This document shows, piece by piece, positions 7,258 through 37,231 of a DNA stretch of 64,000 nucleotides. The number at the start of each line of letters is the position of its first letter. Positions within the stretch are counted from its first letter, which is position 1. Origin of the DNA: Microgenomates group bacterium (GTDB lineage: Bacteria > Patescibacteriota > Microgenomatia > UBA10105 > UBA927); NCBI GenBank assembly GCA_049287205.1, contig JBAQFJ010000001.1, positions 122,042 to 186,041 on the forward strand, given 5' to 3'. Under the pieces are notes generated by a model. The model was not told the DNA's origin. It saw nothing but the letters and a program-made list of their open reading frames with translations, and searched no databases. A program made the translations under genes and the position numbers.

Positions 7258-7333
7258 AGTATATTCCTTTCACACCCTCCGGGTGTCGTCACTCGTACGT
7301 TTTTTCTCTATGAATCGAAAAAACTACGAATTA

Positions 7334-7361
7334 ACAAAAAAAACTCCCGCTTCAAGCGAGA
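7334..7361 (-). terminator. hairpin + U-run in the rplA-rplJ intergenic leader (attenuator/terminator)
   Basis: Minus strand: ctctcgcttgaagcgggag hairpin followed by a run of 9 T; lies in the L10 leader. Confidence 0.5.
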
Positions 7362-7466
7362 GAATGATGCATCAGCTGTGTGACGCATATGTTTTCCCTC
7401 GGTAGGATTTATGGATTTCTCCGCCTACTGTCTCTAGGACGATGGTTATTTATACCATTTCGAGCG

Positions 7467-8748: not shown

Positions 8749-9098
8749 ATATTTTTGGGAAAACGCGGGTTTCGAAGAGAAAAGAGGAGTGCTCTTAGGT
8801 TCAATTCGAAACGGTTTTCGTCTCTTCCTCCATACTCGATGTATAGAAGTGAAAATGATTATATCAAGGAGCGTACCCCTCGTAAAGGGGGAATTCAATA
8901 AAAACCTATAGTTTATTGCGTCAGAGTGGTATAATCCCTCGGTAGTTTAAGAGAAAGGGCCACGGGATAAGACATATAAGGAGGTAAGATCGCACATTAA
9001 TAAATAGATCATGTTTGAATAAGCACACGTTTCGTGTACTTTTGTTTTTTCGCCGGTCGATGATAATCGACTCATCTATGTTTTGCCAAGGAGAAGAA

Positions 9099-9800
9099 AT
9101 GAACACCAAAGGAAAGAATAAATGGAATTTGGCTGGAGCAATTGCCGGGTTGAAAACAGCACAGGACGCTGTCGTCGCGCGACGTGATAGTTTGAACGCC
9201 TATGGCGAGTACGAACGAAGGCTCTATGAAGCAGCCTCTTTCATCAATGATGAGGGTCGGCCTATTGCAAAAGCTGACGCGAATACACTCGCCGGTCTGT
9301 TGATTCTTGATTGCACCAAAGCAATCCAAGCATTCGTCCGACAGATGCGCCGCAACGGGCTGCCTGCCTCTGTGGAAGTTCTACCGGTACAAAGACGGGG
9401 AAACGAGGTTGCAAATCAGATTCGTGCACGAAGCTTTGAGGGTGATGAACGACCGCCGTGTCTATTGACGACATTTGCTAAGGATAATCCGGCGCTTGAA
9501 GACACGCTCAGCTACTTTTTGCTCACTCCATCCGTTGGGTGGTTAATCACTGTCCGCATCGGGGAAGTTAGGAAAAAGTTTACATTGCATGCAACTGTTG
9601 GTTTTCCATTCCCTGAATCGTTAGAGGACGACCTTGTTGCACGAATTCCGCAACATAAAGACAAAAACAGGCGATACCAAGCATTTCCTCGCTCTGTTGT
9701 GTTTTTTTATGGTGATCCTTGGGATCAACATTATGTGGATTCCGTTGATGGGATCGAGCCGTGGTTACAAGGCTGGTTGCGCCAGATAACACCTATCTAA
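9099..9800 (+). CDS. hypothetical protein (GC-richer than its surroundings)
   Basis: ORF 9015..9800; the internal ATG at 9099 has AAGGAG 6 nt upstream. No recognisable domain. Extended -10 (TGGTATAAT) near 8935. Confidence 0.5.
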   Translation: MNTKGKNKWNLAGAIAGLKTAQDAVVARRDSLNAYGEYERRLYEAASFINDEGRPIAKADANTLAGLLILDCTKAIQAFVRQMRRNGLPASVEVLPVQRRGNEVANQIRARSFEGDERPPCLLTTFAKDNPALEDTLSYFLLTPSVGWLITVRIGEVRKKFTLHATVGFPFPESLEDDLVARIPQHKDKNRRYQAFPRSVVFFYGDPWDQHYVDSVDGIEPWLQGWLRQITPI

Positions 9801-9904
9801 GTTTTTGAACATGAATAAACGAAAAAAGAAATCTAAAAGGAATGCATTATGTCTGCATTGTTGTTATTCCTTTGTGATGTTTCTTTTTCTTTCGTCAAGT
9901 TTTG

Positions 9905-9948
9905 ACCCCCGCCAAGGTATTGGTATTTTTGGTGGGGGTTTTGTTTTG
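9905..9948 (+). terminator. intrinsic terminator after the 9099..9800 gene
   Basis: acccccgcc ... ggtgggggt stem (one G.U) followed by tttgtttt. Confidence 0.5.
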
Positions 9949-9961
9949 GAAAAAAGTGGGG

Positions 9962-10009
9962 AAAATAAAAAATTTCTGTCGGTTTTAGCACGTTGGGTTC
10001 AACCGACAG
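9962..10009 (-). terminator. intrinsic terminator after the 10042..10569 gene (convergent)
   Basis: Perfect 9-bp inverted repeat ctgtcggtt/aaccgacag; the minus strand is followed by aaattttttatttt. Confidence 0.5.
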
Positions 10010-10041
10010 ACGGTAATAAAAAAAACGTGGAATTGTTTGAC

Positions 10042-10569
10042 TTAGCGTTCGTCTAAAAGTTTGATGCAGTTGGTATGCAAAGCATCAAGTGGTGAAGCTG
10101 GAGTAGTGATGAACAAATCTGTTAATGCTTGTTGCGCTTCCTCCAACTCTTGACGCGGCCGATCAATAGTAGAATAGATCAGAAATATCTGTAGCTGTTT
10201 GAGCTTTTCTTTCGGTTTTGTTTCAGACTTGATGAAGTTCGGGAGTGTATTCTTAAGAATGTTGGTAACGGCTGCGATATACGATATTTTTTCGGCGCGA
10301 TTGATCGTAACGTTGGACAAGAGCTCTTTGGGTAATTGCTTTCGCGCTTCAGCGACAATCAGGTCTTCCGGTGACAGGAACAGTGTGTCCATCGCAATGA
10401 CAGCGCCGCGTATTGGCAACACTCTGGCGTACAAAAAGAGTTCTCTGATAAGGTAATCATCAACATTTCTTTTCTTGTGTGTGACGTCCCACAACACACA
10501 AGTAAGATATTCATATGTTTGGTTGAGAGTGAATCTCATGCGTGCACCTCCGTAGTTTAATATATTCAT
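10042..10569 (-). CDS. hypothetical protein
   Basis: 175 aa; overlaps the upstream ORF by 29-59 nt in another frame. No recognisable domain. Confidence 0.45.
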   Translation of the reverse strand: MNILNYGGARMRFTLNQTYEYLTCVLWDVTHKKRNVDDYLIRELFLYARVLPIRGAVIAMDTLFLSPEDLIVAEARKQLPKELLSNVTINRAEKISYIAAVTNILKNTLPNFIKSETKPKEKLKQLQIFLIYSTIDRPRQELEEAQQALTDLFITTPASPLDALHTNCIKLLDER

Positions 10570-11215
10570 TGATAAGCGTTTCAGTCTTGTTCAGGTGTTC
10601 TTTTGCTGTTTTTGAACAAATTGATGATCGTGCATTCTGTACGTTATTTAAAATACGTTGCCACAAATCCGTTGATTCTTGCTGAAATGCTGCATTTCTT
10701 TGAATAAACGTCGTGATATGAGACGCTATTGTTTCCTGTTGTTTTCCATTTGCAGTTTTCCATTGAATTTGCAACAACGGTACAATGTTGTGTGCGTTCT
10801 CCACATGTAGAAAACTGTTAATGATCAGTATTTTTTCACAGTCACTTTTACTGATGATGAGCATTTGTTTGATGACCTTAAGATGTTCACGATTACAGGA
10901 AAAAACAAGCTCAATTGCTTGTGTCGCCAGATCAACATGCAGGTGACTTATTGCGAGTCCCATGGTATTGAGAAATGAATCTCTTGCGCGTTTGGATAAC
11001 AGAGTATAAGCAGGAAGTTCCTCGCTGATTAATATGAACATTTTTTGGTAAAAGATTGTTGAGCGACTGAGTAACAATAGATTTTTGGCATACTTCATGA
11101 TCAATTGTTGTTTCATAGGTCTTTCTCCTTTTTTGAAGCAATATGAAATGAGCGCATATGATAGACAGATAGTGCAAATATGGGATACCCATACTGGTAC
11201 ATAACTGTCTACCAA
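10511..11215 (-). CDS. hypothetical protein (C-terminal R-x6-H, HEPN-like motif?)
   Basis: 234 aa (TTG start in the track; internal Met about 33 codons in). C-terminus ...LRRCTHEIHSQPNI. Weak. Confidence 0.45.
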   Translation of the reverse strand: MVDSYVPVWVSHICTICLSYALISYCFKKGERPMKQQLIMKYAKNLLLLSRSTIFYQKMFILISEELPAYTLLSKRARDSFLNTMGLAISHLHVDLATQAIELVFSCNREHLKVIKQMLIISKSDCEKILIINSFLHVENAHNIVPLLQIQWKTANGKQQETIASHITTFIQRNAAFQQESTDLWQRILNNVQNARSSICSKTAKEHLNKTETLINEYIKLRRCTHEIHSQPNI

Positions 11216-11368
11216 TGAAAGAAGAGAAACCTATATCCACGTTTTTGTTAAAGAGCGTCGAAGCCATCTCTATAAAAGTACACAACCGATGCTATATATC
11301 GGCGAGAGGGAATTGACGCCCTTATTATAGTGCAAGAAGCTGAGAAGTCAAAAATAGCCTATAATACT

Positions 11369-11397
11369 TGACAAATGGGATAAAATAGCCTATAATA
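11369..11397 (+). promoter_or_regulatory. consensus sigma-70-type promoter TTGACA-N17-TATAAT
   Basis: TTGACA 11369-11374, 17-nt spacer, TATAAT 11392-11397. Embedded in a 16-bp direct repeat aaaatagcctataata (11352-11367 and 11382-11397). Confidence 0.55.
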
Positions 11398-11435
11398 TGT
11401 TTCTTAGTGTTTTGCCTGCCGGTGAGATGTGAAGA

Positions 11436-11462
11436 AGCGCCGTCAGCGGCGCTTTTTTGTGC
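11436..11462 (+). terminator. intrinsic terminator about 40 nt downstream of the consensus promoter
   Basis: agcgccg-tcag-cggcgct hairpin followed by tttttt. Confidence 0.6.
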
Positions 11463-11626
11463 TCAAGCGCAGGCTGAAACATACCCCGGAGCAATTTGGG
11501 GTGCTCTTTACCAACCAGGTAGACAACTCCTCTTAGAGAATACGCAATACGCCGGTATGTGAATGAACATGGTATTCGTTCTCATTCAGGCGTCTTGCCA
11601 AATTCTTGTTTTTAGAGGAGTAAAAG

Positions 11627-12082
11627 ATGGGAAAGTTATTCGGTTTAGCTTTTTTTGTATTCATCGGTTTTCTAAGCCTTTTCTTTTTTGGAAAACCCGT
11701 CCATTTTGTTGAACAATCAGTGCAAGCTGCAGTGGTTGTTCCCGCACAAGATGATCCTGTTATTGAAGCTCATATTGTTGTAGCTTGTGAGAATACAGTG
11801 TCGTCATACATGGGAGTTTTTGACGACTCTCAGACAGCTGTTGATAGTTGCAAAGAAATATTATTGCAACACTATACCCATCGCGGTATATGGCCAGGCC
11901 CACAGATGGTAACTACTAACTGTTCTGCGGCGCATCTTGCTGCAAAAGAGGTTTCCGAAGCATGGGCAGGTCTGAATTTTTCTTCTGCTAGTATTACATT
12001 TACATATAGAGCAGAAGACGCTCGAGAAATTCTCATGCAATATATGAAACAGGAGCGAGAATTGCTCGAGCAGGGTCTGTGA
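11627..12082 (+). CDS. hypothetical membrane-anchored/secreted protein
   Basis: 151 aa; hydrophobic N-terminal segment; GAGGAG RBS upstream. Confidence 0.5.
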   Translation: MGKLFGLAFFVFIGFLSLFFFGKPVHFVEQSVQAAVVVPAQDDPVIEAHIVVACENTVSSYMGVFDDSQTAVDSCKEILLQHYTHRGIWPGPQMVTTNCSAAHLAAKEVSEAWAGLNFSSASITFTYRAEDAREILMQYMKQERELLEQGL

Positions 12083-12310
12083 TGAGGAGAAAAAGAAAAC
12101 AATTCTATTGAAGAAAGCTAACCGGACTGAGAGATTTTCTCTCTTTTATTTGTTCTACCTGGTTGCTTTCTCTTCCACGTAAAAAGTTACTTTGCACGGA
12201 AAAGAAAGCACCACTTCGCATGAAGCTTCGCGGTGCACAGCAAACTGTTTAGAGTTTTGCAACCTGCAAGAAATTCCCACTCCGCTAAAGCTTCGCGGGA
12301 CACGGCTAGT

Positions 12311-13063
12311 TTACAATTTTGCCACTTGGAGGAAATCCAATTCCACTGGGGTTTCTCGTCCGAAGATGGAAACAAGGACTTTGACTTTGCCTTTTTCTTC
12401 GTCCAAGGAATCGATGGTTCCCAAGAAATCCGAGAACGGTCCGTCGGTAATTTTGACTGCTTCGCCGACAGAGAAACTGGTTTTGTATTTCGGAGCTTCA
12501 AGCGCCATGAATTTCATGATGGCTGCAACTTCTGGTGCAGAAATAGGTGTTGGTTTGTCTCCGGTTCCCACGAACGCAGTCACTCCCTGTGTGGTTCTGA
12601 CGGCAAGCCAAGAGATATCATTGAGAATCATGCGAACCAAAATGTATCCTGGGAATATCTTTTCTTTTTGTTCTTCTTTTTTGCCGTGTTTGACGGTAAC
12701 GATGTTCCTTGTTGGTACGATGATATCAAAGATTTGATCTTTGAGTTTCATGGTATCAATGCGTTGTTTTAAGTTTGTTGCGACTTTGTTTTCATGACCT
12801 GAATAGGTGTGAACGACATACCATTTGGCGTTTTCCGGCACGTCAGTGCGGAGGACGACTTGCGGTTCATCTTTGGTGATATCCAACTTTTTTATAGCAG
12901 CTTTCGTTTTTGGCGGAACTTCTACGACAGGTTTTACCTCTACCTTTTTTTCTTCAGCAACCGGTGCTTCAACAACAGAAGTTTCTTGTACCACCTCATT
13001 GGTACTTATTGGGTTATTGGTATTTATTGAATCATTTGTTATATCGTCCATATTATCTCCCAA
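12311..13063 (-). CDS. nusG: transcription termination/antitermination factor NusG with N-terminal low-complexity extension
   Basis: NGN domain KWYVVHTYSGHENKV and KOW domain GEAVKITDGPFSDFLGTI; about 75 aa T/N/E/K/V-rich N-terminal extension. Confidence 0.9.
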   Translation of the reverse strand: MGDNMDDITNDSINTNNPISTNEVVQETSVVEAPVAEEKKVEVKPVVEVPPKTKAAIKKLDITKDEPQVVLRTDVPENAKWYVVHTYSGHENKVATNLKQRIDTMKLKDQIFDIIVPTRNIVTVKHGKKEEQKEKIFPGYILVRMILNDISWLAVRTTQGVTAFVGTGDKPTPISAPEVAAIMKFMALEAPKYKTSFSVGEAVKITDGPFSDFLGTIDSLDEEKGKVKVLVSIFGRETPVELDFLQVAKL

Positions 13064-17789: not shown

Positions 17790-17832
17790 ATATCAATAAC
17801 TATACCTATTCTTCTGTATTGTGTCTAGTCTG

Positions 17833-17901
17833 CAGGGGCGTCAGGATTCGAACCTGAAAGAGCGGTTTTGGAGACCGCCATGATACCGTTTCATCACGCC
17901 C
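17833..17901 (-). tRNA. tRNA-Trp (anticodon CCA)
   Basis: Minus strand GGGGCGT...GCGGT-CTCCAAA-ACCGC...TCAGG-TTCGAAT-CCTGA-CGCCCC. Anticodon loop has U33-CCA-A37. Short D-stem; no encoded CCA. Confidence 0.6.
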
Positions 17902-17927
17902 CTAATGTGTTTTTATTATATCATCGA

Positions 17928-18428
17928 TTACGGTGTGAGCGTGAGGGAGTTTACGATGGCGTTAAACGAGCTTCCAATGCCTGAAACAAGGACATCCATA
18001 CCTGTTCTTGGATGTTGGAGTATAAGGACATCAATGGGTGTGCCATCTTTTGGCGTTGCTGTGTGATATAGCGTTCCTGAAATGCTGCCGATGCTGATTG
18101 TTTCTGTATTTTTATCTTCGACTGCAATCCCCGGAATATCGTTTTGACAAACAAGAATGACTATGTCATTCGTGGTGGCAAATTTTGCACTGCCTGTTGC
18201 CGGTTCTGTGACGGTCATGGATTTTGGATACGACAGCGAAATTCTGCAGTAGTTGTTTGTATACGGCGTCATGATGACAGGTGATGGTGTCGGCGAAACG
18301 GCAACGATTCCAGTTGGTTGTATGGTAGCTGGTGGTTGCTTTTGCAGTTTGTTCCCGACATTAAATCCGACAAGAAGCGATGCGATAATGGCAAGAAAAA
18401 CAACGAGGATAAAAGTATTTTTATGCAT
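17928..18428 (-). CDS. hypothetical secreted/membrane-anchored protein
   Basis: 166 aa with N-terminal hydrophobic segment. Confidence 0.5.
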   Translation of the reverse strand: MHKNTFILVVFLAIIASLLVGFNVGNKLQKQPPATIQPTGIVAVSPTPSPVIMTPYTNNYCRISLSYPKSMTVTEPATGSAKFATTNDIVILVCQNDIPGIAVEDKNTETISIGSISGTLYHTATPKDGTPIDVLILQHPRTGMDVLVSGIGSSFNAIVNSLTLTP

Positions 18429-18545
18429 ATAAATACGCGCTGTTTGTATTATAGCGAATATTTTTTACACCTGCAGACGTGTTTTATAGAAAAATTTCAC
18501 GAGGAAAAATTTTGATTTGAAGCTAAGGCGAAGCTAGCTTTTCAC

Positions 18546-18560
18546 GAGGGTCTGACCCTG
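18546..18560. repeat. palindromic element, copy 3
   Basis: ttcacGAGGGTCTGACCCTG immediately after the rpmG stop. Confidence 0.8.
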
Positions 18561-18563
18561 CGA

Positions 18564-18737
18564 TTAGTCTAAATGACTGGTTTCTTTGTGTTCCGTGTGT
18601 TTTTTGCAGTGCCTGCAATATTTATTGAGGTGCAATTTTTCCGGAGTATTAATTTTATTCCGTTTGGTTATATAGTTGGTTGCTTTGCACACAGTGCAAA
18701 CAAGTCCAATGAGTAGTCGTTGATCTTTCTTTGCCAT
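18564..18737 (-). CDS. rpmG: 50S ribosomal protein L33
   Basis: Not in the >=60 aa track. Minus strand: MAKKDQRLLIGLVCTVCKATNYITKRNKINTPEKLHLNKYCRHCKKHTEHKETSHLD (57 aa), classic L33 zinc-ribbon pattern. A GAGGGTCTGACCCTG element follows the stop. Confidence 0.8.
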   Translation of the reverse strand: MAKKDQRLLIGLVCTVCKATNYITKRNKINTPEKLHLNKYCRHCKKHTEHKETSHLD

Positions 18738-18781
18738 AATAGAAGGTATTATACCGTATATTGGGTGTTAGTGCCAAGGGG

Positions 18782-19666
18782 TTATTCGAGCAGGTTGTTT
18801 TTGGAGATGGAGTTAGCAATAGCAGATGCCATAAGAGCGCGACCTTTGTCTGAATAGTGGATATGATCGCCGCTGTTAATATACGCGAGATTTCCGTTTC
18901 CATCAGATAAGAGTGACGGGTGATACGCATCGGCAAGCGGTAAGTGTTCACCTTCGGCAAACCGAATGGTATTTTCCAGATATTTTTTGATTGTGGTGAC
19001 CCGTTGCCATTTGTCTATAACGGAAAATGATATCCCCGGAGCGCCGTCGCCAAATTTGTTCGCGTTTGGTGCAATGGTGGCGGCGATAATGATTTTTGCA
19101 TTTGGAAGATTTGCCTTGACCGCGTCTACTGCTTTTGCCAATAAAAGCCAATGTGCATCAATGGTTGGTGCATCATCGCCAAACGGATTGTATCCAAACG
19201 ATTCAATGACAACGATATCAGGATTTGTTGCAACAAGGGATGTATAGGATTTGCCAAGATAGGTATAACTTTCAGTAATGCGTTTGATGCCGTATTGAAT
19301 ACCTGTGCCGCCAACGCCAAAGTTTTTAATGGTAAATTGTGTTTTTGGATATAGTTTTTTGAGTGCAGTTTGGAGTGCTGGTGCAGTCGGACCCAATGTA
19401 TCCATCATGGAATCACCCAGAAGTGCAACGATGACGGAAGATTGTTGTATCGGTTTTGTTGTGGGTGTTGGCAGTATTGTAGGAGTAGTGGAAATCATCA
19501 TCGGTCCGATAAATGTTTCTGCACCGAGCACGGCAGGTGCAGTTGTGGGAATTGGTGTTGCCATCAATGTACCAAACGATGTTTTTGCTGATACGGGGTG
19601 TGGTAGCAGAACAAAAATAATGAGAGTAGTGATGACAAATATAATGGAGTGCATGGCACTTTCCAT
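18782..19666 (-). CDS. secreted SGNH/GDSL-family hydrolase
   Basis: Signal peptide; ALLGDSMMD (GDS block) and GDHIHYS (DxxH block). Confidence 0.7.
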   Translation of the reverse strand: MESAMHSIIFVITTLIIFVLLPHPVSAKTSFGTLMATPIPTTAPAVLGAETFIGPMMISTTPTILPTPTTKPIQQSSVIVALLGDSMMDTLGPTAPALQTALKKLYPKTQFTIKNFGVGGTGIQYGIKRITESYTYLGKSYTSLVATNPDIVVIESFGYNPFGDDAPTIDAHWLLLAKAVDAVKANLPNAKIIIAATIAPNANKFGDGAPGISFSVIDKWQRVTTIKKYLENTIRFAEGEHLPLADAYHPSLLSDGNGNLAYINSGDHIHYSDKGRALMASAIANSISKNNLLE

Positions 19667-19699
19667 GATACACAGGGGATGTGGTGGTACGCAAACTTT

Positions 19700-20086
19700 T
19701 TATGCGCGTTTGGTGAGTTTTGCTTTCACGGTTTTTGCGCCAAAATATGTTTTGCAATATTTTGTGGTGAGTTTTGCATCAAACCATGCGCAGGAAAAAA
19801 TATTTAAATAGATTGCTTTTTTGTATTCTGAAAAATGTGCGGTGACAGAACTTGTTTCAATAAGCTGCACTAATGAATATCCTGAGGTGATTGGATTTTC
19901 ATGACCAAAATGGGGGATGAATGCCTTGCCATATCGTTTCATATGGATGACATTGTCACAGAGATCAATGACAAATTTTCTGATTTTTGTACGGGAGGAA
20001 AGAGTTGCTAAATTACAACCATATAAATTCAGGGTTAATTCCTGACCGAATAATTCGCTATCTTCTTCTCGTGGTGAGTGCAACAT
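19700..20086 (-). CDS. S-adenosylmethionine decarboxylase-like (pyruvoyl-dependent, archaeal/bacterial class 1b) protein
   Basis: 128 aa; FGQELTLNLYGC ... VQLIETSSVTAHFSEY resembles small AdoMetDC proenzymes. Confidence 0.5.
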   Translation of the reverse strand: MLHSPREEDSELFGQELTLNLYGCNLATLSSRTKIRKFVIDLCDNVIHMKRYGKAFIPHFGHENPITSGYSLVQLIETSSVTAHFSEYKKAIYLNIFSCAWFDAKLTTKYCKTYFGAKTVKAKLTKRA

Positions 20087-20210
20087 AATTCTGTAATTTT
20101 AAAAATAAACCAATACAATAAAACGCGAGGACAGTACGTTTATATATTAGTGTCAAGGAAATGAAACATGATGTCAAGAGAGGAAAACAATTTTTTTATA
20201 AAATATACTG

Positions 20211-20282
20211 AGCCCGGGGGGAGAATTGGACTCCCGACCTTTTTCTTACCAAGAAAACGTTCTACCACTGAACTACCCGGGC
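20211..20282 (-). tRNA. tRNA-Thr (anticodon GGT)
   Basis: Minus strand GCCCGGGTAGTTCAGTGGTAGAAC..TTTTC-TTGGTAA-GAAAA..GGGAG-TCCAATT-CTCCC..CCCGGGC. Confidence 0.7.
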
Positions 20283-20411
20283 AACATTGGTTTTCATTTT
20301 ATCAAAATTTCCAGTCTTTGTATTGTTGACTTTTTTTACGAGGAACAATACAGTGAGGGTGCGCATGGTTTTACAAAAGTTTTCGACTAATCATATATCA
20401 GGGGGTACTCT

Positions 20412-21350
20412 ATGAAAAACATTTTGGTCACAGGTGCATTCGGACAAATTGGCAGTGAACTTGTGCCGGCGCTGCAGAAGAAATTTGGTGAGACACATGT
20501 TGTTGCGATAGGACACCACAATATCCCAAAAAATTTCAAAGGGATTGTGGAAATTGCGGAAATTGGCGAGGGAGAAAAATTGGAAGCAATCATCAAAAAA
20601 TATTCTATCGATACGGTCTATCATCTTGTCTCACTGCTTTCCGCCAAAGGGGAAGTGGATCCTTCTTTGACGTGGCAGGTGAATATGGGTGGACTGAAAA
20701 TAATTTTGGATTTGGCGGTGACATATAAATTGCAGGTATTCTGGCCAAGTTCTATTGCTACATTTGGTCCGACTACGCCACGAGTGGAGACTCCACAACG
20801 AACAGTGTTGGAGCCGACAACCATGTACGGTGTTACCAAAGTTGCAGGAGAATTGTTGGTTTCGTATTATCATAAAAAATTTGGACTTGATATTCGGTCT
20901 ATCCGCTATCCGGGACTCATCAGTTGGAAGACGCCGCCTGGGGGTGGAACAACAGATTATGCGGTTGCCATTTTTTACGAAGGATTAAAACAGGGAAAGT
21001 ATGAATGTTTTGTTCGTCCTGATACGACGCTTCCAATGATGTACATGGATGATGCAGTTCGTGGAACAATGGAACTTATGGAGGCAGACCCAACGAAACT
21101 TACTGTGACGACGAGTTACAATTTTTCTGCAATCAGTTTTACAGCGGAAGAGTTAGCAGCAGAAATTAATAAATATATAAAAGTTGATGTAACCTATGCA
21201 CCTGATGCACGTCAGGCAATTGCAGATAGTTGGCCGCAGTCCATTGACGATACGGCAGCGCGGAACGATTGGGGATGGAAACATGAATATACACTTGAAA
21301 AAATGACAACCGTGATGATAGAAGCATTACAAAAGAAAGGAAACCTATGA
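20412..21350 (+). CDS. tdh: L-threonine 3-dehydrogenase (NAD-dependent epimerase/dehydratase family, short-chain type)
   Basis: 312 aa; [15 protein letters not shown] Rossmann N-terminus, YGVTK catalytic YxxxK. Sits next to kbl as in SDR-type Tdh operons. Confidence 0.7.
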
Positions 21351-22558
21351 ACGATCCATTACAACCGTTTTATGATCAGATTGAGACGATGAAAGAGAAG
21401 GGATTGTATACAAATATTCGCACCGTTGAATCATCACAGGGTGCATGGCTCACAGTTGGCGGCAAAAAAGTATTGAATTTTTGTTCCAATAATTATCTTG
21501 GTCTTGCAGGTAATGCAGATCTCGGTAAAGCTGCGATTGCTGCCATTAAAACATATGGTGTTGGGCCGGGAGCGGTTCGTGTGCTTTCCGGAACGAATAT
21601 CTTGCATCTTGAACTGGAAACCCTGATTGCAAAATTTAAACGATGCGAAGCTGCCATCGTTGTACAGAGTGGATTTATCGCCAACATCATTGCGATTCAA
21701 TCCCTCATGGGGAAAGAAGATGTCGTGATTTCTGATGAACTCAATCACGCATCCATCATTGATGCGGTAAAAATTGCACAGATTGGAAATAAATTTATTT
21801 ACAAGCATAATGACATGCAGGATTTGGAACTAAAACTGAAAGAAGTCCAGCAGCTTGCGGAAACCCCACGTACGGATGGGTCGAAACGACTTGTTTTGAT
21901 CGTGACGGACGGTGTGTTTTCGATGGATGGAGACATTGCAAAACTTCCAGAAATTGTGCACCTTGCGAAAAAATATGGTGCAATCACTATGACCGATGAT
22001 GCACATGGCGAAGGGGTACTCGGAAGTCATGGACGGGGAATTGTGGATCATTTTAATCTCCACGGACAAGTAGATATTGAAGTAGGGACGCTTTCAAAGG
22101 CACTTGGCGTGGTTGGTGGAGTGATTACCGGCAAAAAAGAACTGATTGAATGGTATCGGCAAAAAGGACGACCATTCGCATTTTCCACAGGGCTGACTAT
22201 TCCTGATACCGCAGCACTGATTGCTTGTATCACGATGCTTATGAAATCAGATGTCTTAGTCAAAAAAGTGTGGGCAAATGGTGACTATTTAAAAAAGGAA
22301 TTTACAAAGCTTGGATTTAATACGGGCGTGTCAGAAACGCCGATTACACCCGTAATGATCGGTGATGAAAATCTTGCCAAGACGTTCAGCGCTAAGCTTT
22401 TTGAACACAATGTGTTTGCAACACCAATTAAGTTCCCGATGGTGGCACTTGGGAAGGCGCGGATTCGCGTTATGCCATCAGCTAGCCATACAAAAAAAGA
22501 TTTGGATTTCGGAATTGCCGCATTTGAAACAGTTGGGAAAGAACTCGGCATTATCTAG
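21347..22558 (+). CDS. kbl: 2-amino-3-ketobutyrate CoA ligase (glycine C-acetyltransferase)
   Basis: 403 aa PLP enzyme of the AONS family; ATGA overlap with tdh. Confidence 0.8.
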
Positions 22559-22561
22559 CTT

Positions 22562-22580
22562 GGAGAGGGTCAGACCCTCC
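22562..22580. repeat. palindromic element, copy 4
   Basis: GGAGAGGGTCAGACCCTCC between kbl and the hydrolase gene. Confidence 0.8.
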
Positions 22581-22587
22581 TTAAACA

Positions 22588-23592
22588 ATGAAGACAAACG
22601 TATTTCGCATTATTCTCGTGTGTTTGATCATTGGTGTTGGTGGTATCTTCGGATGGCTGGTATTTCCAAAAGAAAACGGAGTACTTATTAGTCCGTTAAG
22701 CATGGTGAAAGAAAAACCATTGGAAAAATATTCCATACTGCGATTGGCGAGTCGTGAATTTATTCCTTCTCCGATTGTGTTAAGTGAACCCACAGCCACA
22801 ACGAGCGCGTATACAGTCTATCCGTTTTCGTTTGTCAGTGATGGGAAAAAAGTAACGGGAATTGCCCATATTCCTATATCAGTAAATCCTGAAAAAACAT
22901 TTCCTGTGGTTGTGCAACTCCGCGGGTATGTCGATCGGGAGATCTATACGCCCGGTATGGGCACAACACATAGTGCCGAAGTCTATGCAAAAAATGGGTA
23001 TATTTCCTTTGCGCCTGATTTTTTGGGATACGGCGGATCTGACGCGCCGTCATTAAGTCCGATTGAAGAGCGACTGGAAACCTATACAACCGCTTTGACA
23101 CTTCTTGCATCTGTTCCAAGGTTTCCACATGCAGACCCAACGCGTATTGGACTATGGGGGCACAGTAACGGCGGACAGATCGCGTTGACACTTTTGACGG
23201 TTCTTGGTGACCGTGCAGTACCCACTGCTGTATGGGCACCGGTGACAAAACCGTTTCCGTATAACATTTTGTATTACACGGATGAATTTGATGATCGGGG
23301 AAAAGCTTTACGAAAAGTGGTGGCAGATTTTGAGGCAGACTATGATGCGGATTTATATTCCATGACGCAGTATCTGGATCGGATTGCCGTTCCTATACAG
23401 CTCTCTCAGGGAACAAACGATGACGCGGTGCCTTTTGCGTGGAGTGATAGTTTTGTGGAACTTTTGGAAGAAAAGAAAACAGATGTTACATATTATATTT
23501 ATTCCGGAGCTGACCATAATTTAGCAGGTGGTGACGCGTGGAACAGTGCGATGGGGCGCGATATGCAGTTTTTTGCTGCTGCATGGAAATAG
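22588..23592 (+). CDS. membrane-anchored alpha/beta-hydrolase (dienelactone hydrolase / S9-like)
   Basis: N-terminal TM; GHSNGG nucleophile elbow; Asp/His later. Bracketed by two copies of the GAGGGTCAGACCCTC element. Confidence 0.65.
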   Translation: MKTNVFRIILVCLIIGVGGIFGWLVFPKENGVLISPLSMVKEKPLEKYSILRLASREFIPSPIVLSEPTATTSAYTVYPFSFVSDGKKVTGIAHIPISVNPEKTFPVVVQLRGYVDREIYTPGMGTTHSAEVYAKNGYISFAPDFLGYGGSDAPSLSPIEERLETYTTALTLLASVPRFPHADPTRIGLWGHSNGGQIALTLLTVLGDRAVPTAVWAPVTKPFPYNILYYTDEFDDRGKALRKVVADFEADYDADLYSMTQYLDRIAVPIQLSQGTNDDAVPFAWSDSFVELLEEKKTDVTYYIYSGADHNLAGGDAWNSAMGRDMQFFAAAWK

Positions 23593-23596
23593 CCGC

Positions 23597-23617
23597 GAGG
23601 CTAGGGTCAGACCCTCC
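23597..23617. repeat. palindromic element, copy 5
   Basis: gaggctAGGGTCAGACCCTCC, 5 nt after the hydrolase stop. Confidence 0.8.
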
Positions 23618-23672
23618 TTAGAAAAAAACACGGGAGATGAATCCCGTGTTTATTTTTTTATATGTGTTTTAT

Positions 23673-24176
23673 TTACGGTAATGTTATCGTGCCTGCTGCA
23701 CACGATGCTGATGCGCCCTGATCATCTGATACCATGGTTTTCATGGTCACTGCAGCGCCTTTGACGAGTTCCACAGCTTTTGTGGTGCATTGATACGTTT
23801 GTCCGCCACGTTCGTCAGCCGATTTTAAGACTGCTTCTGCTTCTGATGTTGCCAACACTTTTCCATCTGCGTTTGCAGTTACTGTAAATGTACAGGTGAC
23901 GCTTTTGGTGGTAAGCAGTGCTGATCCTTCTGCTGACAAGTAGTATTTTGGAAATCCGATCATCGGGTTATACCATTGCTTATCACAGGAAAGCTTTGAA
24001 ATCATGGTTTTTTCTTCAACTACAGGTGTTGTCGTTGTTGTTTCTTGTGTTGTCGCTTTTGGTTTTGGCCAAAGGAGCACTCCAGCAACGATGACGGCGA
24101 CCACGATGATGGCGCCAATGATGTATACGCTTGAGGTTTCACCCTCATGTTGTGTGTTCTGCGTTTCGTTTTCCAT
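23673..24176 (-). CDS. hypothetical membrane-anchored protein
   Basis: 167 aa; single TM then Thr-rich linker and Cys-containing domain. Confidence 0.45.
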   Translation of the reverse strand: MENETQNTQHEGETSSVYIIGAIIVVAVIVAGVLLWPKPKATTQETTTTTPVVEEKTMISKLSCDKQWYNPMIGFPKYYLSAEGSALLTTKSVTCTFTVTANADGKVLATSEAEAVLKSADERGGQTYQCTTKAVELVKGAAVTMKTMVSDDQGASASCAAGTITLP

Positions 24177-24253
24177 ATATAGATACTATATATATAAATG
24201 AAGCAATTTGGCAAGGGGGTGTATGATAATCTGCATGTATAATAGGAAATAGT

Positions 24254-24928
24254 ATGCAAATACAAAAATTGTTTGGGGTTGAACAGGCACGCGATGCAAC
24301 AGGATTTGTTGTGGTTATCGATGTGTTTCGTGCAGCATCAACTGCCGCGTGTGCGCTCGCACAGGGTGCAAAAGAAATTATTCCCGTCGCAACAAAAGAA
24401 GACGCATTTTTGTATAGAGAAACGCATCTGGATACTCTGATTATGGGAGAAGACAAAGGAATAATGATTCCAGGATTCGATTTCGGTAACTCGCCGTATC
24501 TTCTTGCAAAAGAAGATTTGATTGGAAAAACGATGATTCATCGGTCAACGCAGGGAACACAAGGACTTGTTCGTGCTATTCATGCATCACCACTTGTGTT
24601 TGGAAGTTTTGTTATAGCACAGGCAATCGTTTCATATATTCGTGCTGTTGCCCCGTTAACGGTGACATTTGTTGCGCTCGGTGGTGAACAATTCGAAGAT
24701 GGCATATTTGCCACGTATATGGAAGATCTTCTTCAGGGACGTAACCCAACCAAACATTCTGTGGAAAAACAAATTCAAGGAAGTATTCATGCAAAACGAT
24801 TTTTTGATCCAATGAAACCAGATTTTCCGAAAGAAGATTATTATTTTTGTTTGGATATAAACAAATTTCCGTTTGTCGTTGAGGCCGTTCGAACACCATA
24901 TCTTCATCTAGTGAAGAAAACTATTTGA
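24254..24928 (+). CDS. 2-phosphosulfolactate phosphatase (ComB) family protein
   Basis: 224 aa; GFVVVIDVFRAASTAACALAQGAKEIIPV resembles the ComB N-terminal signature. Confidence 0.5.
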   Translation: MQIQKLFGVEQARDATGFVVVIDVFRAASTAACALAQGAKEIIPVATKEDAFLYRETHLDTLIMGEDKGIMIPGFDFGNSPYLLAKEDLIGKTMIHRSTQGTQGLVRAIHASPLVFGSFVIAQAIVSYIRAVAPLTVTFVALGGEQFEDGIFATYMEDLLQGRNPTKHSVEKQIQGSIHAKRFFDPMKPDFPKEDYYFCLDINKFPFVVEAVRTPYLHLVKKTI

Positions 24929-24999
24929 GCCGAGGCGGGGATTCGGACCCCGGACCTACTGTTTACAAAACAGTTGCTCTACCACTGAGCTATCTCGGC
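24928..24999 (-). tRNA. tRNA-Thr (anticodon TGT)
   Basis: Minus strand GCCGAGATAGCTCAGTGGTAGAGCA-ACTGT-TTTGTAA-ACAGT...GGGGTCCGAATCCCC... Confidence 0.7.
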
Positions 25000-25010
25000 A
25001 AGCTTTTGGG

Positions 25011-25095
25011 TGTCAGGACCAGGATTCGAACCTGGGTAGCCCGTTAAGGCGACAGTTTTACAGACTGTTGCGATTGTCCACTCTGCCATCCTGAC
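25011..25095 (-). tRNA. tRNA-Tyr (anticodon GTA)
   Basis: 85 nt with long variable arm; anticodon arm ACAGT-CTGTAAA-ACTGT; T-arm CCAGG-TTCGAAT-CCTGG. Confidence 0.65.
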
Positions 25096-25123
25096 AAAAA
25101 AATATTCAGTTGTTAACGTTGTA

Positions 25124-36121: not shown

Positions 36122-37231
36122 ATGATGCGTGTTTCTTTATTTTCTGATTATCAAGAAGACGGTTGGAAAAGCATGGATGTCTATACAGATAATCTCGCGT
36201 GGCAGGTAAAGCAGTGTGTTCCGGATGTGGTAGTTACTCGGTATGCGGCGATGCAGCCATTTTCTTCTCTGTTTTCAAAGCCGCATAAATTCATGCGGTA
36301 TTGTTTTCGGTATTGTATTAATCCGCTACTTGCTCCATTTCATCAGGGGGACATCAACCACATTATTGATCAATCAAATGCACATCTTTTGCATATCCTA
36401 GACAGAAAAAAAACAGTCATTACCTGTCATGATTTGATCGTTCCGTTATGGCAAAAAGAGAATCGTGTGTCATTCGTTCCTTGGATACGCCATCAAGTGA
36501 AATTATGGAGAATACGGTCACTACGGCTAGCTGCACATATTATTGCTGTATCTGCCTATACCAAACAGGAATTAATGCAAAAACTATCCATTCCGGAAGC
36601 GAAGATTACGGTTATTCCTGAAGGTGTTGAACGCATATTTTGTCCAACCAGTGCGCGTTTGGTATCCCAAATAAGGAAAAAATATGATTTTCCCAAGACA
36701 TTTTTGTTGCATGTCGGTAGCTGTGCCGAGTATAAAAACATGGAATATTTGGTTCGGTTGTTTGCATCTCTGAGAAAACAATATCCAGCGTTGTATCTGG
36801 TGAAAGTCGGATCAGCGTGGACAAAAGATTTGCAGAACCTGATCGATACCATGCATGTAGGAGACCATATACGAACCATTCCCTATGTACCAAGGGAAGA
36901 CTTGCCGAGGATATATGCGGCCGCTGTTTGTTTGGTACACCCCTCCATTGTGGAAGGATTTGGACTGACCGTACTTGAAGCGATGGCGTGCGGGTGCCCA
37001 GTTGTTGTTTCGGATATTCCGTCACATCGTGAGCTTGTCGGAAATGCGGGTGTGTTTTTTTCGCTTCATACTGTATCCTCAGGGAAAGAAAAAATTATAT
37101 CAGTCATTGAAAACACGGCAAAAAGAAAACAGTTTGTACAAAAGGGGATATCGCGTGCGCGTGTGTTTCGTTGGGAAAGAACAGCGAGATTAACGGCAAA
37201 GGTGTACCTCGGTATACAAAAACACGTATGA
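36122..37231 (+). CDS. glycosyltransferase family 4 (GT-B)
   Basis: ...IVEGFGLTVLEAMACGCPVVVSD... EX7E motif. Confidence 0.8.
   Translation: MMRVSLFSDYQEDGWKSMDVYTDNLAWQVKQCVPDVVVTRYAAMQPFSSLFSKPHKFMRYCFRYCINPLLAPFHQGDINHIIDQSNAHLLHILDRKKTVITCHDLIVPLWQKENRVSFVPWIRHQVKLWRIRSLRLAAHIIAVSAYTKQELMQKLSIPEAKITVIPEGVERIFCPTSARLVSQIRKKYDFPKTFLLHVGSCAEYKNMEYLVRLFASLRKQYPALYLVKVGSAWTKDLQNLIDTMHVGDHIRTIPYVPREDLPRIYAAAVCLVHPSIVEGFGLTVLEAMACGCPVVVSDIPSHRELVGNAGVFFSLHTVSSGKEKIISVIENTAKRKQFVQKGISRARVFRWERTARLTAKVYLGIQKHV

What the first reader, a model, noticed from the sequence alone, without database searches (positions are those of the whole stretch)
11352..11462. Textbook sigma-70 promoter followed after ~40 nt by a strong intrinsic terminator: candidate small RNA or attenuator
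TTGACA-N17-TATAAT sits at 11369-11397, inside a 16-bp direct repeat aaaatagcctataata that gives two -10 boxes 30 nt apart. A GC-rich hairpin plus T6 follows at 11436-11462. This predicts a transcript of roughly 55 nt (tcttagtgttttgcctgccggtgagatgtgaagaagcgccgtcagcggcgctttttt), or a leader that controls read-through into the 151-aa gene 165 nt downstream. No ORF is present in that interval.
Basis: seen in the sequence. Interest (0 to 1): 0.5.

Follow-up and report, generated by a model that had tools for sequence, protein, structure and literature searches.

The report
Early terminator in boxA-type mRNA leader
The perfect promoter and the strong terminator 55 bases after it are real and conserved in nine related uncultured bacteria, and they open a long, structured mRNA leader built like the start of a ribosomal-RNA operon (boxA antitermination signal plus a helix that joins the two ends of the transcript) in front of small exported-protein genes.

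Summary
TTGACA-17-TATAAT lies at 11368-11396 and is the only perfect match in the 64 kb. The 16-nt direct repeat and a GC hairpin plus T6 (11432-11458) are also there.

The promoter, a 5' segment with an invariant GCCUGCCGG, and the hairpin with a U run of 6-8 recur in 9 Microgenomates (CPR) lineages. They always lie between nusG and rplK. The terminator stem shows compensatory changes.

It is not a free-standing unit. A covarying helix, P1, pairs bases before the terminator with bases after it, so the read-through RNA is under selection. Downstream of it come:
- a variable hairpin;
- a match to the rRNA-operon boxA (GCUCUUUACCAA);
- a 12-15-nt strand whose complement lies after the gene, which covaries and has G.U pairs only in the mRNA sense;
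- an anti-SD:SD helix.

The divergent transcription unit has the same plan.

Best reading: a promoter-proximal attenuator, which probably also yields an abundant ~55-nt RNA, at the head of a Nus/boxA-type leader with a leader-trailer helix around a small exported-protein gene. Rfam has no match. Termination, read-through and Nus-factor binding are inferred, not shown. It is a new variant of known kinds.

The parts
11324..11351 (-). Divergent promoter TTGACT-16-TATAAT, which drives the minus-strand unit (genes 10511-11116 and 10042-10569).
   Evidence: 11/12 match. Conserved in the window, L037, L064 and L068.
11351..11366 (+). Upstream copy of the direct repeat AAAATAGCCTATAATA. It fills the 16 bp between the two back-to-back -35 boxes, which is the UP-element position for both promoters.
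   Evidence: Only the core CCTATA is kept in L061, L068 and L070, and no copy is evident in L063.
11368..11396 (+). Sigma-70-type promoter TTGACA-17-TATAAT. The second repeat copy (11382-11397) contains the -10 box. The predicted start is about 11403.
   Evidence: 12/12 match. It is the only perfect match in 64 kb. Both hexamers are kept in 9/9 lineages.
11403..11482 (+). 5' domain. Helix P1 (11407-11416 with 11472-11482) encloses an invariant unpaired UGCCGG (11417-11422) and the terminator hairpin.
   Evidence: Covariance model R1 and pair counts: 97% paired, 6 pairs changed on both sides, 4 of them in P1. No other copy was found in the window or in other loci.
11432..11458 (+). Intrinsic-terminator-like hairpin T: AAGAAGCGCCG-UCAG-CGGCGCUUUUU, with a U6 run at 11453-11458. 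The predicted 3' end of the short RNA is about nt 54-57.
   Evidence: The stem is GCGCCG/CGGCGC in 6 lineages and GCACCG/CGGUGC in 3. The U run is 6-8 in 9/9.
11483..11502 (+). Hairpin P3 (ACCCCGGA-GCAA-UUUGGGGU), in the boxB position directly 5' of boxA. Its sequence is variable, and it is absent in L068 and L070.
   Evidence: (4 compensatory pairs between the window and L005).
11503..11514 (+). boxA-like element GCUCUUUACCAA (consensus GYTCTTTAANA).
   Evidence: Consensus from PMC5725501. The E. coli rrn leader was checked.
11512..11523 (+). Leader strand CAACCAGGUAGA of the leader-trailer helix.
11527..11533 (+). Anti-SD CUCCUCU, which pairs with the Shine-Dalgarno AGAGGAG at 11614-11620. 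This helix encloses the long hairpin P4 (about 11536-11607).
   Evidence: SD pairing probability is 0.9-1.0 in 8 lineages. In L070 the SD is paired in the MFE structure. P4 has many compensatory pairs.
11627..12082 (+). Cargo gene: a 151-aa protein with an N-terminal membrane helix. It is a lineage-restricted orphan.
12129..12153 (+). Weak hairpin GAGAGAUUUUCUCUC followed by a U-rich tract, just before the trailer strand.
12154..12165 (+). Trailer strand UCUACCUGGUUG, the perfect complement of 11512-11523.
   Evidence: (pairing probability 0.96).
12166..12208 (+). Conserved 3' hairpin CUUUCUCUUCC...GGAAAAGAAAG directly after the trailer strand.
   Evidence: By my reading of the sequences, different but still complementary arms occur in L068 and L063.
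11236..11256 (-). Minus-strand leader: an exact boxA GCUCUUUAACAA (11256->11245), overlapping the leader strand UAACAAAAACGUGGA (11250->11236).
10017..10031 (-). Trailer strand UCCACGUUUUUUUUA of the minus-strand unit. It lies just after the stop of the 175-aa gene and before that unit's hairpin-plus-U-run terminator.
   Evidence: L037 covaries (ACGUAGA in both arms).

Best explanation
The promoter at 11368-11396 starts a transcription unit of about 770 nt for a small exported protein.

Proposed sequence of events:
1. RNA polymerase starts near 11403 and transcribes 30 nt that contain the invariant GCCUGCCGG.
2. It then meets an intrinsic terminator (a GC stem plus U6). A large share of transcripts probably end here as an RNA of about 55 nt.
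3. Polymerases that pass the terminator complete helix P1, which folds the terminator hairpin into a closed 5' domain.
4. They then transcribe a boxB-position hairpin and a boxA element. By analogy with rRNA operons, boxA loads NusB/NusE with NusA and NusG, making elongation processive through the long untranslated leader and the weak hairpin after the ORF.
5. The strand next to boxA (CAACCAGGUAGA) pairs with its complement just beyond the ORF. This leader-trailer helix closes the mRNA.
6. The ribosome-binding site is held in an anti-SD helix.

Shown here: conservation, covariation, complementarity and the motif match.

Inferred: termination, its efficiency, its regulation, Nus-factor binding, and the consequence of the end-to-end helix. 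That consequence could be protection of the RNA ends, RNase III maturation, or control of translation.
For: Promoter and terminator
- The promoter is the only perfect one in 64 kb and is conserved in 9/9 lineages.
- The terminator core folds at -9 to -12 kcal/mol. Its U run is 6-8 nt and ends at nt 55-59 in 9/9.
- The stem changes from G-C to A-U in 3 lineages. The U run never varies although its A/G partners do.
- The same genome ends genes with ordinary hairpin-plus-U terminators.

Read-through RNA is selected
- P1 spans the terminator, and 4 of its 8 pairs change on both sides. One contributing lineage, L070, was found by the model but not used to build it.

boxA
- GCTCTTTACCAA and an exact GCTCTTTAACAA sit in the two divergent leaders, each in the sense orientation. 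These are the only two exact matches to GCTCTTTAMCAA in the window; about 0.015 are expected by my own estimate.
- The consensus GYTCTTTAANA comes from PMC5725501.
- The E. coli rrn leader carries TGCTCTTTAACAA about 130-145 nt before the 16S gene.

Leader-trailer helix
- The core 10 bp are paired in 8/8 counted lineages, with 4 compensatory pairs. A ninth lineage was checked by folding.
- The helix is 12-15 bp in the mRNA sense. All internal wobbles are G.U in that sense.
- Pairing probability is 0.96-1.0 in full-length folds.

Other support
- The SD is sequestered in 9/9.
- The divergent unit has the same plan.
- The order boxB-boxA-leader strand, and the model in which anchored boxA helps the trailer to pair, are described for rrn operons (PMC10250234).
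Against: - No transcript data exist. Termination at T and the start site are predictions.
- boxA lies downstream of T, so it cannot explain how T is passed.
- No strong antiterminator structure exists. The best competitor is about 5 bp (UGCCG with CGGCG, my inspection).
- No regulator was identified. The neighbouring ORFs have no detectable homology.
- The boxA consensus differs between phyla (PMC7665894), and this organism's own rRNA leader could not be examined.
- The trailer strand lies just after a weak hairpin plus U-rich tract (12129-12153). It is transcribed only if that site is read through.
- The helix is 12-15 bp, shorter than the >17 bp needed for E. coli 16S.
- Only 9 lineages from one clade were available. 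Most compensatory changes come from the 3-4 most diverged of them.
Confidence: 0.55

Rival explanations
1. A stand-alone gene for a trans-acting small RNA of about 55 nt. The very strong promoter and strong terminator exist to make the short RNA. Its invariant GCCUGCCGG region is a seed that pairs with other mRNAs. Read-through into the leader is incidental or secondary.
For: - A perfect promoter is followed by a canonical terminator.
- The 5' 22 nt are identical in 6 of 9 lineages, and GCCUGCCGG is invariant in the 8 aligned. The ninth, L070, keeps CCUGCCGG.
- One perfect 15-nt complement (CACCGGCAGGCAAAA, 38365-38379) lies in a GT4 glycosyltransferase gene of a polysaccharide cluster. About 0.002 such matches are expected by chance (my estimate).
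Against: - The module never occurs apart from the leader. It is single-copy and always sits at the head of the same leader.
- P1 covariation links the 'seed' side to sequence beyond the terminator.
- No promoter-like site lies between the terminator and the ORF.
- Conservation of the target could not be tested. The GT4 homologs found are only 45-55% identical and do not keep that peptide.
Confidence: 0.2
2. The hairpin is purely structural. P1 plus T would be a boxB-like or 5'-stabilising stem-loop, or a protein-binding site, that does not terminate to any useful extent. The U run would be kept only as the partner of the A-rich 5' flank.
For: - The U run pairs with AAGAA-type sequence and lengthens the stem.
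- In L070, L068 and the minus-strand leaders, the P1/T-type hairpin sits directly 5' of boxA, where rrn leaders carry boxB (PMC10250234).
- In the minus-strand leaders the U run is broken in 2 of 4 lineages.
Against: - In the plus-strand leader the U run is invariant (>=6 U) in 9/9, while its partners switch between A and G. No U-to-C change ever accompanies a G partner. This points to a constraint beyond pairing.
- Hairpin strength, loop size and distance to the U run are those of a working terminator.
Confidence: 0.17
3. A DNA-level element. The 12-nt inverted repeats (11512-11523 and 12154-12165) would be recombination sites of an invertible, phase-variable surface-protein cassette. Alternatively, the palindromic hairpin and the direct repeats would be operator sites, and the RNA structures would be by-products.
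For: - Inverted repeats flank variable genes for small exported proteins, and the two arms change together between lineages. Recombination could also produce that pattern.
- The direct repeats bracket the -35 and -10 boxes at a 31-bp spacing.
Against: - All wobble positions inside the helix are G.U in the mRNA sense. They would be A.C on the other strand. Helix length is uniform only in that sense.
- No recombinase gene was recognised among the neighbouring ORFs scanned.
- Every contig that shows the flanks of the two lineages with several assemblies has the same orientation.
- In the minus-strand unit the trailer lies inside the transcribed region, ahead of the terminator.
Confidence: 0.05

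Closest known systems
rRNA operon leader: boxB-boxA-boxC, the rrn antitermination complex, and the leader-trailer helix (E. coli rrn; PMC10250234, PMC4807359)
   Same: - The order is the same: strong promoter, variable hairpin, boxA (GCUCUUUAACAA-type), then a leader strand that pairs with a trailer beyond the transcribed body.
- The helix covaries while its sequence drifts.
   Different: - The enclosed body is a protein-coding gene of 62-153 aa with a Shine-Dalgarno sequence, not an rRNA.
- The helix is 12-15 bp rather than 17-44 bp, and the leader strand abuts boxA instead of lying 18-19 nt away.
- An intrinsic terminator precedes boxA.
- Nus-factor binding was not tested.
boxA elements in mRNA leaders and before CRISPR arrays (suhB and others, PMC5725501; CRISPR arrays, PMC7665894)
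   Same: A boxA consensus lies in the 5' untranslated region of a non-rRNA transcript, close to the translation start region or ahead of a long unprotected transcript.
   Different: - Those cases have no leader-trailer helix and no promoter-proximal intrinsic terminator.
- They were found in Proteobacteria, Bacteroidetes and Cyanobacteria, not in CPR.
Phage lambda PR'-tR' unit with Q antitermination (PMC7171158 for the Q mechanism; the short constitutive transcript is from my own knowledge)
   Same: A strong constitutive promoter is followed by a terminator, which yields a short abundant RNA unless polymerase is modified. A TAnnnT -10-like hexamer (TAGTGT, 11405-11410) lies in the early transcribed region.
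   Different: - No Q-like gene or Q-binding element was identified.
- The terminator lies at +35 to +57, not about +190.
- This is an analogy of logic only.
hok mRNA fold-back (fbi/tac) 5'-3' pairing in type I toxin-antitoxin systems (from my own knowledge)
   Same: The 5' and 3' ends of an mRNA for a small membrane protein pair over about 12-15 bp while the ribosome-binding site is sequestered.
   Different: - No antisense RNA promoter was seen.
- Most of the cargo proteins are 90-150-aa exported proteins or lipoproteins rather than ~50-aa toxins.
- boxA and the early terminator have no counterpart in hok.
Leader-derived small RNAs from prematurely terminated transcripts, such as the SreA/SreB riboswitch products (from my own knowledge)
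   Same: One promoter gives both a short terminated RNA and a read-through mRNA.
   Different: There is no recognisable aptamer. Only about 30 nt precede the terminator, and Rfam gives no match.

Membership tests
Intrinsic (Rho-independent) terminator | A GC-rich stem-loop immediately followed by a U run. | tested here: met
   The stem is 6-7 GC-rich pairs (-9 to -12 kcal/mol) with a 4-nt loop and a U6-8 run, in 9/9 lineages.
Intrinsic (Rho-independent) terminator | The stem is maintained by compensatory change. | tested here: met
   G-C changes to A-U at one stem pair in 3 lineages, and A-U to U-A at another. 97% of cells are paired.
Intrinsic (Rho-independent) terminator | Transcripts actually end there. 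| not testable with these tools
   No transcript data are available.
Sigma-70-type promoter | -35 and -10 hexamers at 16-18-nt spacing, conserved in relatives. | tested here: met
   12/12 match. It is unique in 64 kb. Both hexamers are kept in 9/9 lineages.
boxA (NusB/NusE-binding antitermination element) | A sequence match to the consensus GYTCTTTAANA (E. coli rrn TGCTCTTTAACAA). | tested here: met
   - The minus-strand leader matches exactly.
- The plus-strand leader of the window matches 10 of 11 (A9C).
- L005, L068 and L070 match exactly, L061 is near, and L063 is diverged.
- The consensus is, and the E. coli sequence was checked.
boxA (NusB/NusE-binding antitermination element) | Lies in the transcribed leader, in the sense orientation, after a hairpin and ahead of a long transcript. 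| tested here: met
   This holds for both divergent leaders and for all lineages.
boxA (NusB/NusE-binding antitermination element) | The same motif occurs in the organism's own rRNA operon leaders. | not testable with these tools
boxA (NusB/NusE-binding antitermination element) | Binds NusB/NusE and confers antitermination. | not testable with these tools
   This needs an experiment.
rrn-type leader-trailer helix | Complementary strands flank the transcribed body and covary. | tested here: met
   The core 10 bp are paired in 8/8 counted lineages (a ninth by folding), with 4 compensatory pairs. Wobbles occur only in the mRNA sense.
rrn-type leader-trailer helix | Encloses an rRNA, with a helix of more than 17 bp. 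| tested here: not met
   It encloses protein-coding ORFs and is 12-15 bp long.
Any Rfam family (riboswitch, T-box, ribosomal-protein leader, known sRNA) | A covariance-model match. | tested here: not met
   There is nothing at gathering score. The best E-values in 11100-11700 are 0.3-10, to unrelated eukaryotic families.
Trans-acting small RNA gene | Its own promoter and terminator, plus a conserved unpaired seed. | tested here: met
   GCCUGCCGG is invariant in the 8 aligned lineages.
Trans-acting small RNA gene | Independent of the downstream gene, with conserved target complementarity. | tested here: inconclusive
   - The module is always fused to the leader, and P1 spans the terminator.
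- There is one 15-nt complement at 38365-38379.
- Its conservation could not be tested.
Leader-peptide attenuator | A conserved short ORF overlapping the terminator region. | tested here: not met
   Indels of 1-2 nt between close relatives break every frame, and no SD precedes any ORF.

The most novel reading that the evidence does not exclude
In this CPR clade, protein-coding transcription units are built like miniature rRNA operons. A boxA-loaded Nus complex would carry the leader strand along with the polymerase, so that it zips up with a trailer strand after the ORF. This would close the mRNA into a loop whose ribosome-binding site is masked. A conserved promoter-proximal terminator would gate entry into this pathway and release an abundant 55-nt RNA, which may itself act on a surface-polysaccharide gene. 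That would be a previously undescribed way of expressing small surface proteins, and a natural test case for the chaperone model of the antitermination complex on an mRNA.
Probability: 0.3. Interest if true: 0.8.

Novelty: new variant of a known kind. Interest (0 to 1): 0.6.

Why it matters
Each part is familiar on its own: a promoter, an intrinsic terminator, boxA, a leader-trailer helix and SD masking. To my knowledge, and after a limited literature search, the combination around protein-coding genes has not been described.

If transcript data confirm it, three things would follow:
- Nus/boxA-assisted end-to-end pairing would not be restricted to rRNA.
- There would be a first conserved cis-regulatory RNA architecture specific to Microgenomates (CPR), organisms for which almost nothing is known about gene regulation.
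- There would be a candidate abundant small RNA.

The element also marks a variable island of small exported-protein genes between nusG and rplK. That is plausibly relevant to the cell-surface biology of these episymbionts.

Tried and rejected
- Rfam at gathering score over the whole window, and at E <= 10 over 11100-11700, gave no meaningful match.
- An exact-pattern scan of genome contigs with GTGTTTTGCCTGCCGGTG gave 37 hits. 36 were chance matches in unrelated phyla, and only L037 was homologous.
- A scan of metagenome contigs with CAACCAGGTAGACAACTCC gave 10 hits. Two were known relatives and 8 lay in unrelated sequence, apparently coding.
- Covariance model R1 was searched against the window and 25 loci. 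It found no second copy.
- Relatives L055-L059 have other genes between nusG and rplK but no such leader. In L066/L067 nusG abuts rplK.
- I looked for a strong terminator/antiterminator alternative and found none. Only a ~5-bp competitor exists (my inspection).
- Leader peptide: rejected.
- Pfam, PHROGs, NCBIfam and PDB sequence searches of the four orphan ORFs returned nothing.
- The AlphaFold2 model of the 151-aa protein has pLDDT 56, too low for a fold search.
- An exhaustive search shows that the protein family has only 6 cluster representatives.
- A duplex-energy scan for targets of the short RNA timed out. I replaced it with an exact-complement search.
- Conservation of the 15-nt GT4 site could not be tested.

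Full report
**1. Observation**

The sequence is as described, shifted by one base. TTGACA-17-TATAAT lies at 11368-11396 and scores 12/12. It is the only perfect TTGACA-N16-18-TATAAT on either strand of the 64-kb window.

The 16-nt repeat AAAATAGCCTATAATA is exact at 11351-11366 and 11382-11397.

The hairpin AAGAAGCGCCG-UCAG-CGGCGCUUUUU occupies 11432-11457, with a T6 run at 11453-11458. The 60-nt predicted transcript folds at -24 kcal/mol, z = -3.5. The consensus terminator scan does not list it. I think this is because the scan extends the stem into the T run, but I did not test that.

**2. Setting**

The window comes from a Microgenomates-group (CPR) MAG, according to the name attached to the 151-aa protein.

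The region lies in a 3.4-kb island of ORFs without detectable homology, between nusG (12311-13063, minus strand) and rplK. In some relatives nusG directly abuts rplK. In others the island holds different genes.

**3. Relatives**

I collected sequences in three ways: contigs encoding a 60%-identical homolog of the 151-aa protein, one pattern-scan hit, and the neighbourhoods of the closest NusG proteins. This gave nine distinct lineages: the window, L060, L064, L037, L005, L068, L061, L063 and L070.

In every one, the same promoter-leader lies on the strand opposite nusG.

- The non-coding leader is 76-87% identical to those of L005, L060 and L037 by blastn. The downstream protein in L005 is only 60% identical.
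- The downstream gene differs between lineages. It is the 141-153-aa family in five, membrane peptides of 62 aa and about 66 aa in two, and unrelated lipoproteins of 121 and 92 aa in two.
- The 151-aa family has only six cluster representatives among 1.84 billion.

**4. Anatomy of the leader (window coordinates)**

(a) *5' domain, 11403-11482.* Helix P1 (11407-11416 with 11472-11482) encloses an invariant unpaired UGCCGG and the terminator hairpin T. On the nine sequences, 97.3% of cells are paired and six pairs change on both sides, four of them among the eight pairs of P1. No shuffle or register shift comes close (the eight-sequence version is). L070, which supplies several P1 changes, was detected by the model but not used to build it.

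(b) *Hairpin T.* The core folds at -9 to -12 kcal/mol. The U run is 6-8 nt and ends at nt 55-59 in 9/9 lineages.

(c) *Hairpin P3, 11483-11502.* Its sequence is variable and it covaries. It is absent in L068 and L070.

(d) *GCUCUUUACCAA, 11503-11514.* See section 5.

(e) *CAACCAGGUAGA, 11512-11523.* See section 6.

(f) *Anti-SD CUCCUCU, 11527-11533.* It pairs with AGAGGAG at 11614-11620 around a long covarying hairpin. The SD is predicted to be paired in all nine lineages.

The whole leader is unusually stable, with z = -6.2 in the window and -6.6 in L005. It is locally GC-rich.

**5. boxA**

The 12-mer matches the rRNA-operon boxA.

- The published consensus is GYTCTTTAANA (PMC5725501).
- TGCTCTTTAACAA occurs a median of 7 times per E. 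coli genome, about 130-145 nt before the 16S gene. This agrees with the boxA deletion coordinates in PMC10250234.
- In the window, the only two exact matches to GCTCTTTAMCAA are in the two divergent leaders, each in the sense orientation. I estimate about 0.015 expected by chance.
- L005, L068 and L070 fit the consensus exactly.

The order hairpin, boxA, leader strand is that of rrn leaders, boxB-boxA-boxC.

**6. Leader-trailer helix**

The 12 nt after boxA have a perfect complement at 12154-12165, just beyond the ORF. Every lineage has such a pair, and the two arms change together:

| Lineages | Leader arm (trailer difference in brackets) |
|---|---|
| window, L060, L005, L068 | CAACCAGGUAGA |
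| L064 | CAACCAGAUGAAA |
| L037 | CAACCAGGUGA[G/A]AAG |
| L061 | CCAGGGA[G/A]AAACA |
| L063 | CCAGAGAGA[G/A]AC |
| L070 | CCAGGUAG..GAAAAUA |

- The core 10 bp are paired in 8/8 counted lineages, with four compensatory pairs.
- All internal non-Watson-Crick positions are G.U in the mRNA sense. The helix is a uniform 12-15 bp in that sense, but 7-13 bp in the other. This points to an RNA helix rather than a DNA repeat.
- Full-length folds give it a probability of 0.96-1.0.
- A further conserved hairpin follows the trailer.

**7. The divergent unit has the same plan**

The minus-strand promoter at 11351..11324 scores 11/12. Downstream of it lie, in order:
- a hairpin with a U-rich tail;
- an exact boxA (11256..11245);
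- a leader strand UAACAAAAACGUGGA whose complement (10031..10017) follows the second gene of the unit and precedes that unit's terminator.

L037 covaries, with ACGUAGA in both arms.

**8. What the early terminator does**

Three facts constrain the answer.

- The U run is invariant, although its A/G partners vary and no U-to-C change ever accompanies a G partner. It is therefore constrained beyond base pairing. The genome uses ordinary hairpin-plus-U terminators at gene ends.
- P1 covaries across the terminator, so the read-through RNA is a selected product.
- boxA is transcribed after T, and no strong antiterminator exists.

I therefore read T as a promoter-proximal attenuator. It sits behind the strongest promoter in the window, releases an RNA of about 55 nt, and lets a fraction of polymerases continue, either a fixed fraction or one set by a factor. 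boxA and the end-to-end helix then act on those transcripts.

How T is passed is not explained by anything I found. This is the weakest link in the account.

**9. Rivals**

*A stand-alone sRNA.* It is supported by the invariant seed and by one perfect 15-nt complement in a GT4 gene (38365-38379; about 0.002 expected by chance, my estimate). It is weakened by P1 and by the strict linkage to the leader. Conservation of the target could not be tested. The two readings are not exclusive.

*A purely structural hairpin.* It fits the boxB position but not the invariant U run.

*DNA inversion sites or operators.* The strand-specific wobble pattern and the single orientation seen in the contigs that show the flanks argue against this.

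*Riboswitch, T-box or leader peptide.* All are rejected.

**10. Comparison and novelty**

The closest known system is the rrn leader with its antitermination complex and leader-trailer helix. boxA in mRNA leaders (suhB) and before CRISPR arrays shows that boxA is used outside rRNA.

This locus differs in three ways. It encloses small protein genes, it has a short helix that abuts boxA, and a conserved terminator stands ahead of boxA. A limited literature search found no description of this combination and no report of boxA use in CPR.

I class it as a new variant of known kinds.

**11. Limits**

- All nine lineages belong to one clade.
- There are no transcript data.
- Nus-factor binding, termination efficiency and processing are inferences.
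- This organism's own rRNA leader was not available for comparison.

Noticed in passing
window 38365-38379 (+): CACCGGCAGGCAAAA is a perfect 15-nt complement of nt 8-22 of the predicted short RNA. It lies in the 3' end of a GT4 glycosyltransferase ORF (37171-38454) within a polysaccharide cluster: Polysacc_synt, two GT4 genes, DUF4330 and Wzy_C. About 0.002 such matches are expected by chance (my estimate). It is a possible trans target.
   Followed up: partly
window 10017-11351 (-): The divergent transcription unit has the same design. It has an 11/12 promoter, a promoter-proximal hairpin with a U-rich tail (11303..11285), an exact boxA (11256..11245), and a leader strand whose complement lies after the 175-aa gene, ahead of a good terminator (about 10010..9965).
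   Followed up: yes
window 11413-11421 (+); minus-strand leaders of L064, L037 and L068: The motif CCUG(N)CGG occurs near the 5' end of both kinds of leader. It is invariant in the plus-strand leaders, and reads CCUGCCGGCA, CCUGACGGCA and CCUGUCGGCA in three minus-strand leaders. It could be a shared protein site or, at the DNA level, an inverted repeat flanking the divergent promoters. It is unexplained.
   Followed up: partly
window 8900-9100 (+): A third unit (the gene at about 9099-9800) has a promoter-like TGGTATAAT at about 8926-8934. Its leader holds a hairpin plus U run (ACACGTTTCGTGT ACTTTTGTTTTTT, 9025-9050) about 50 nt before the start codon. Early terminators therefore look like a theme of this island.
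   Followed up: no
window 8900-12310; loci L055-L071: The nusG-rplK junction is a variable island. It is empty in L066/L067 and holds one to five orphan genes in other relatives, most of the small ones being exported proteins or lipoproteins. None has a Pfam, PHROG, NCBIfam or PDB match.
   Followed up: partly
L037 (CAZSTG010000002.1): The record is titled 'uncultured Gammaproteobacteria bacterium'. However, it shows the same secE-nusG-island-rplKAJL gene order and an 86%-identical NusG, as in the Microgenomates window. The taxonomic label or the binning is probably wrong.
   Followed up: no
window 12311-13063 (-): This clade's NusG carries an N-terminal extension of about 75 residues ahead of the NusG domain (the Pfam match starts at residue 80). 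The extension varies in length and sequence among close relatives.
   Followed up: no
window 7328-7455 (-): An Rfam L10_leader match (57.7 bits) lies upstream of rplJ. Four tRNA genes lie at 17832-25096.
   Followed up: no
window 12166-12245 (+): After the trailer strand comes a conserved hairpin (12166-12208). It is followed by a hairpin GCACCACUUCGCAUGAAGCUUCGCGGUGC, which on the minus strand is followed by a U-rich tract and looks like nusG's terminator. The trailer strand thus sits between two convergent terminator-like sites.
   Followed up: partly
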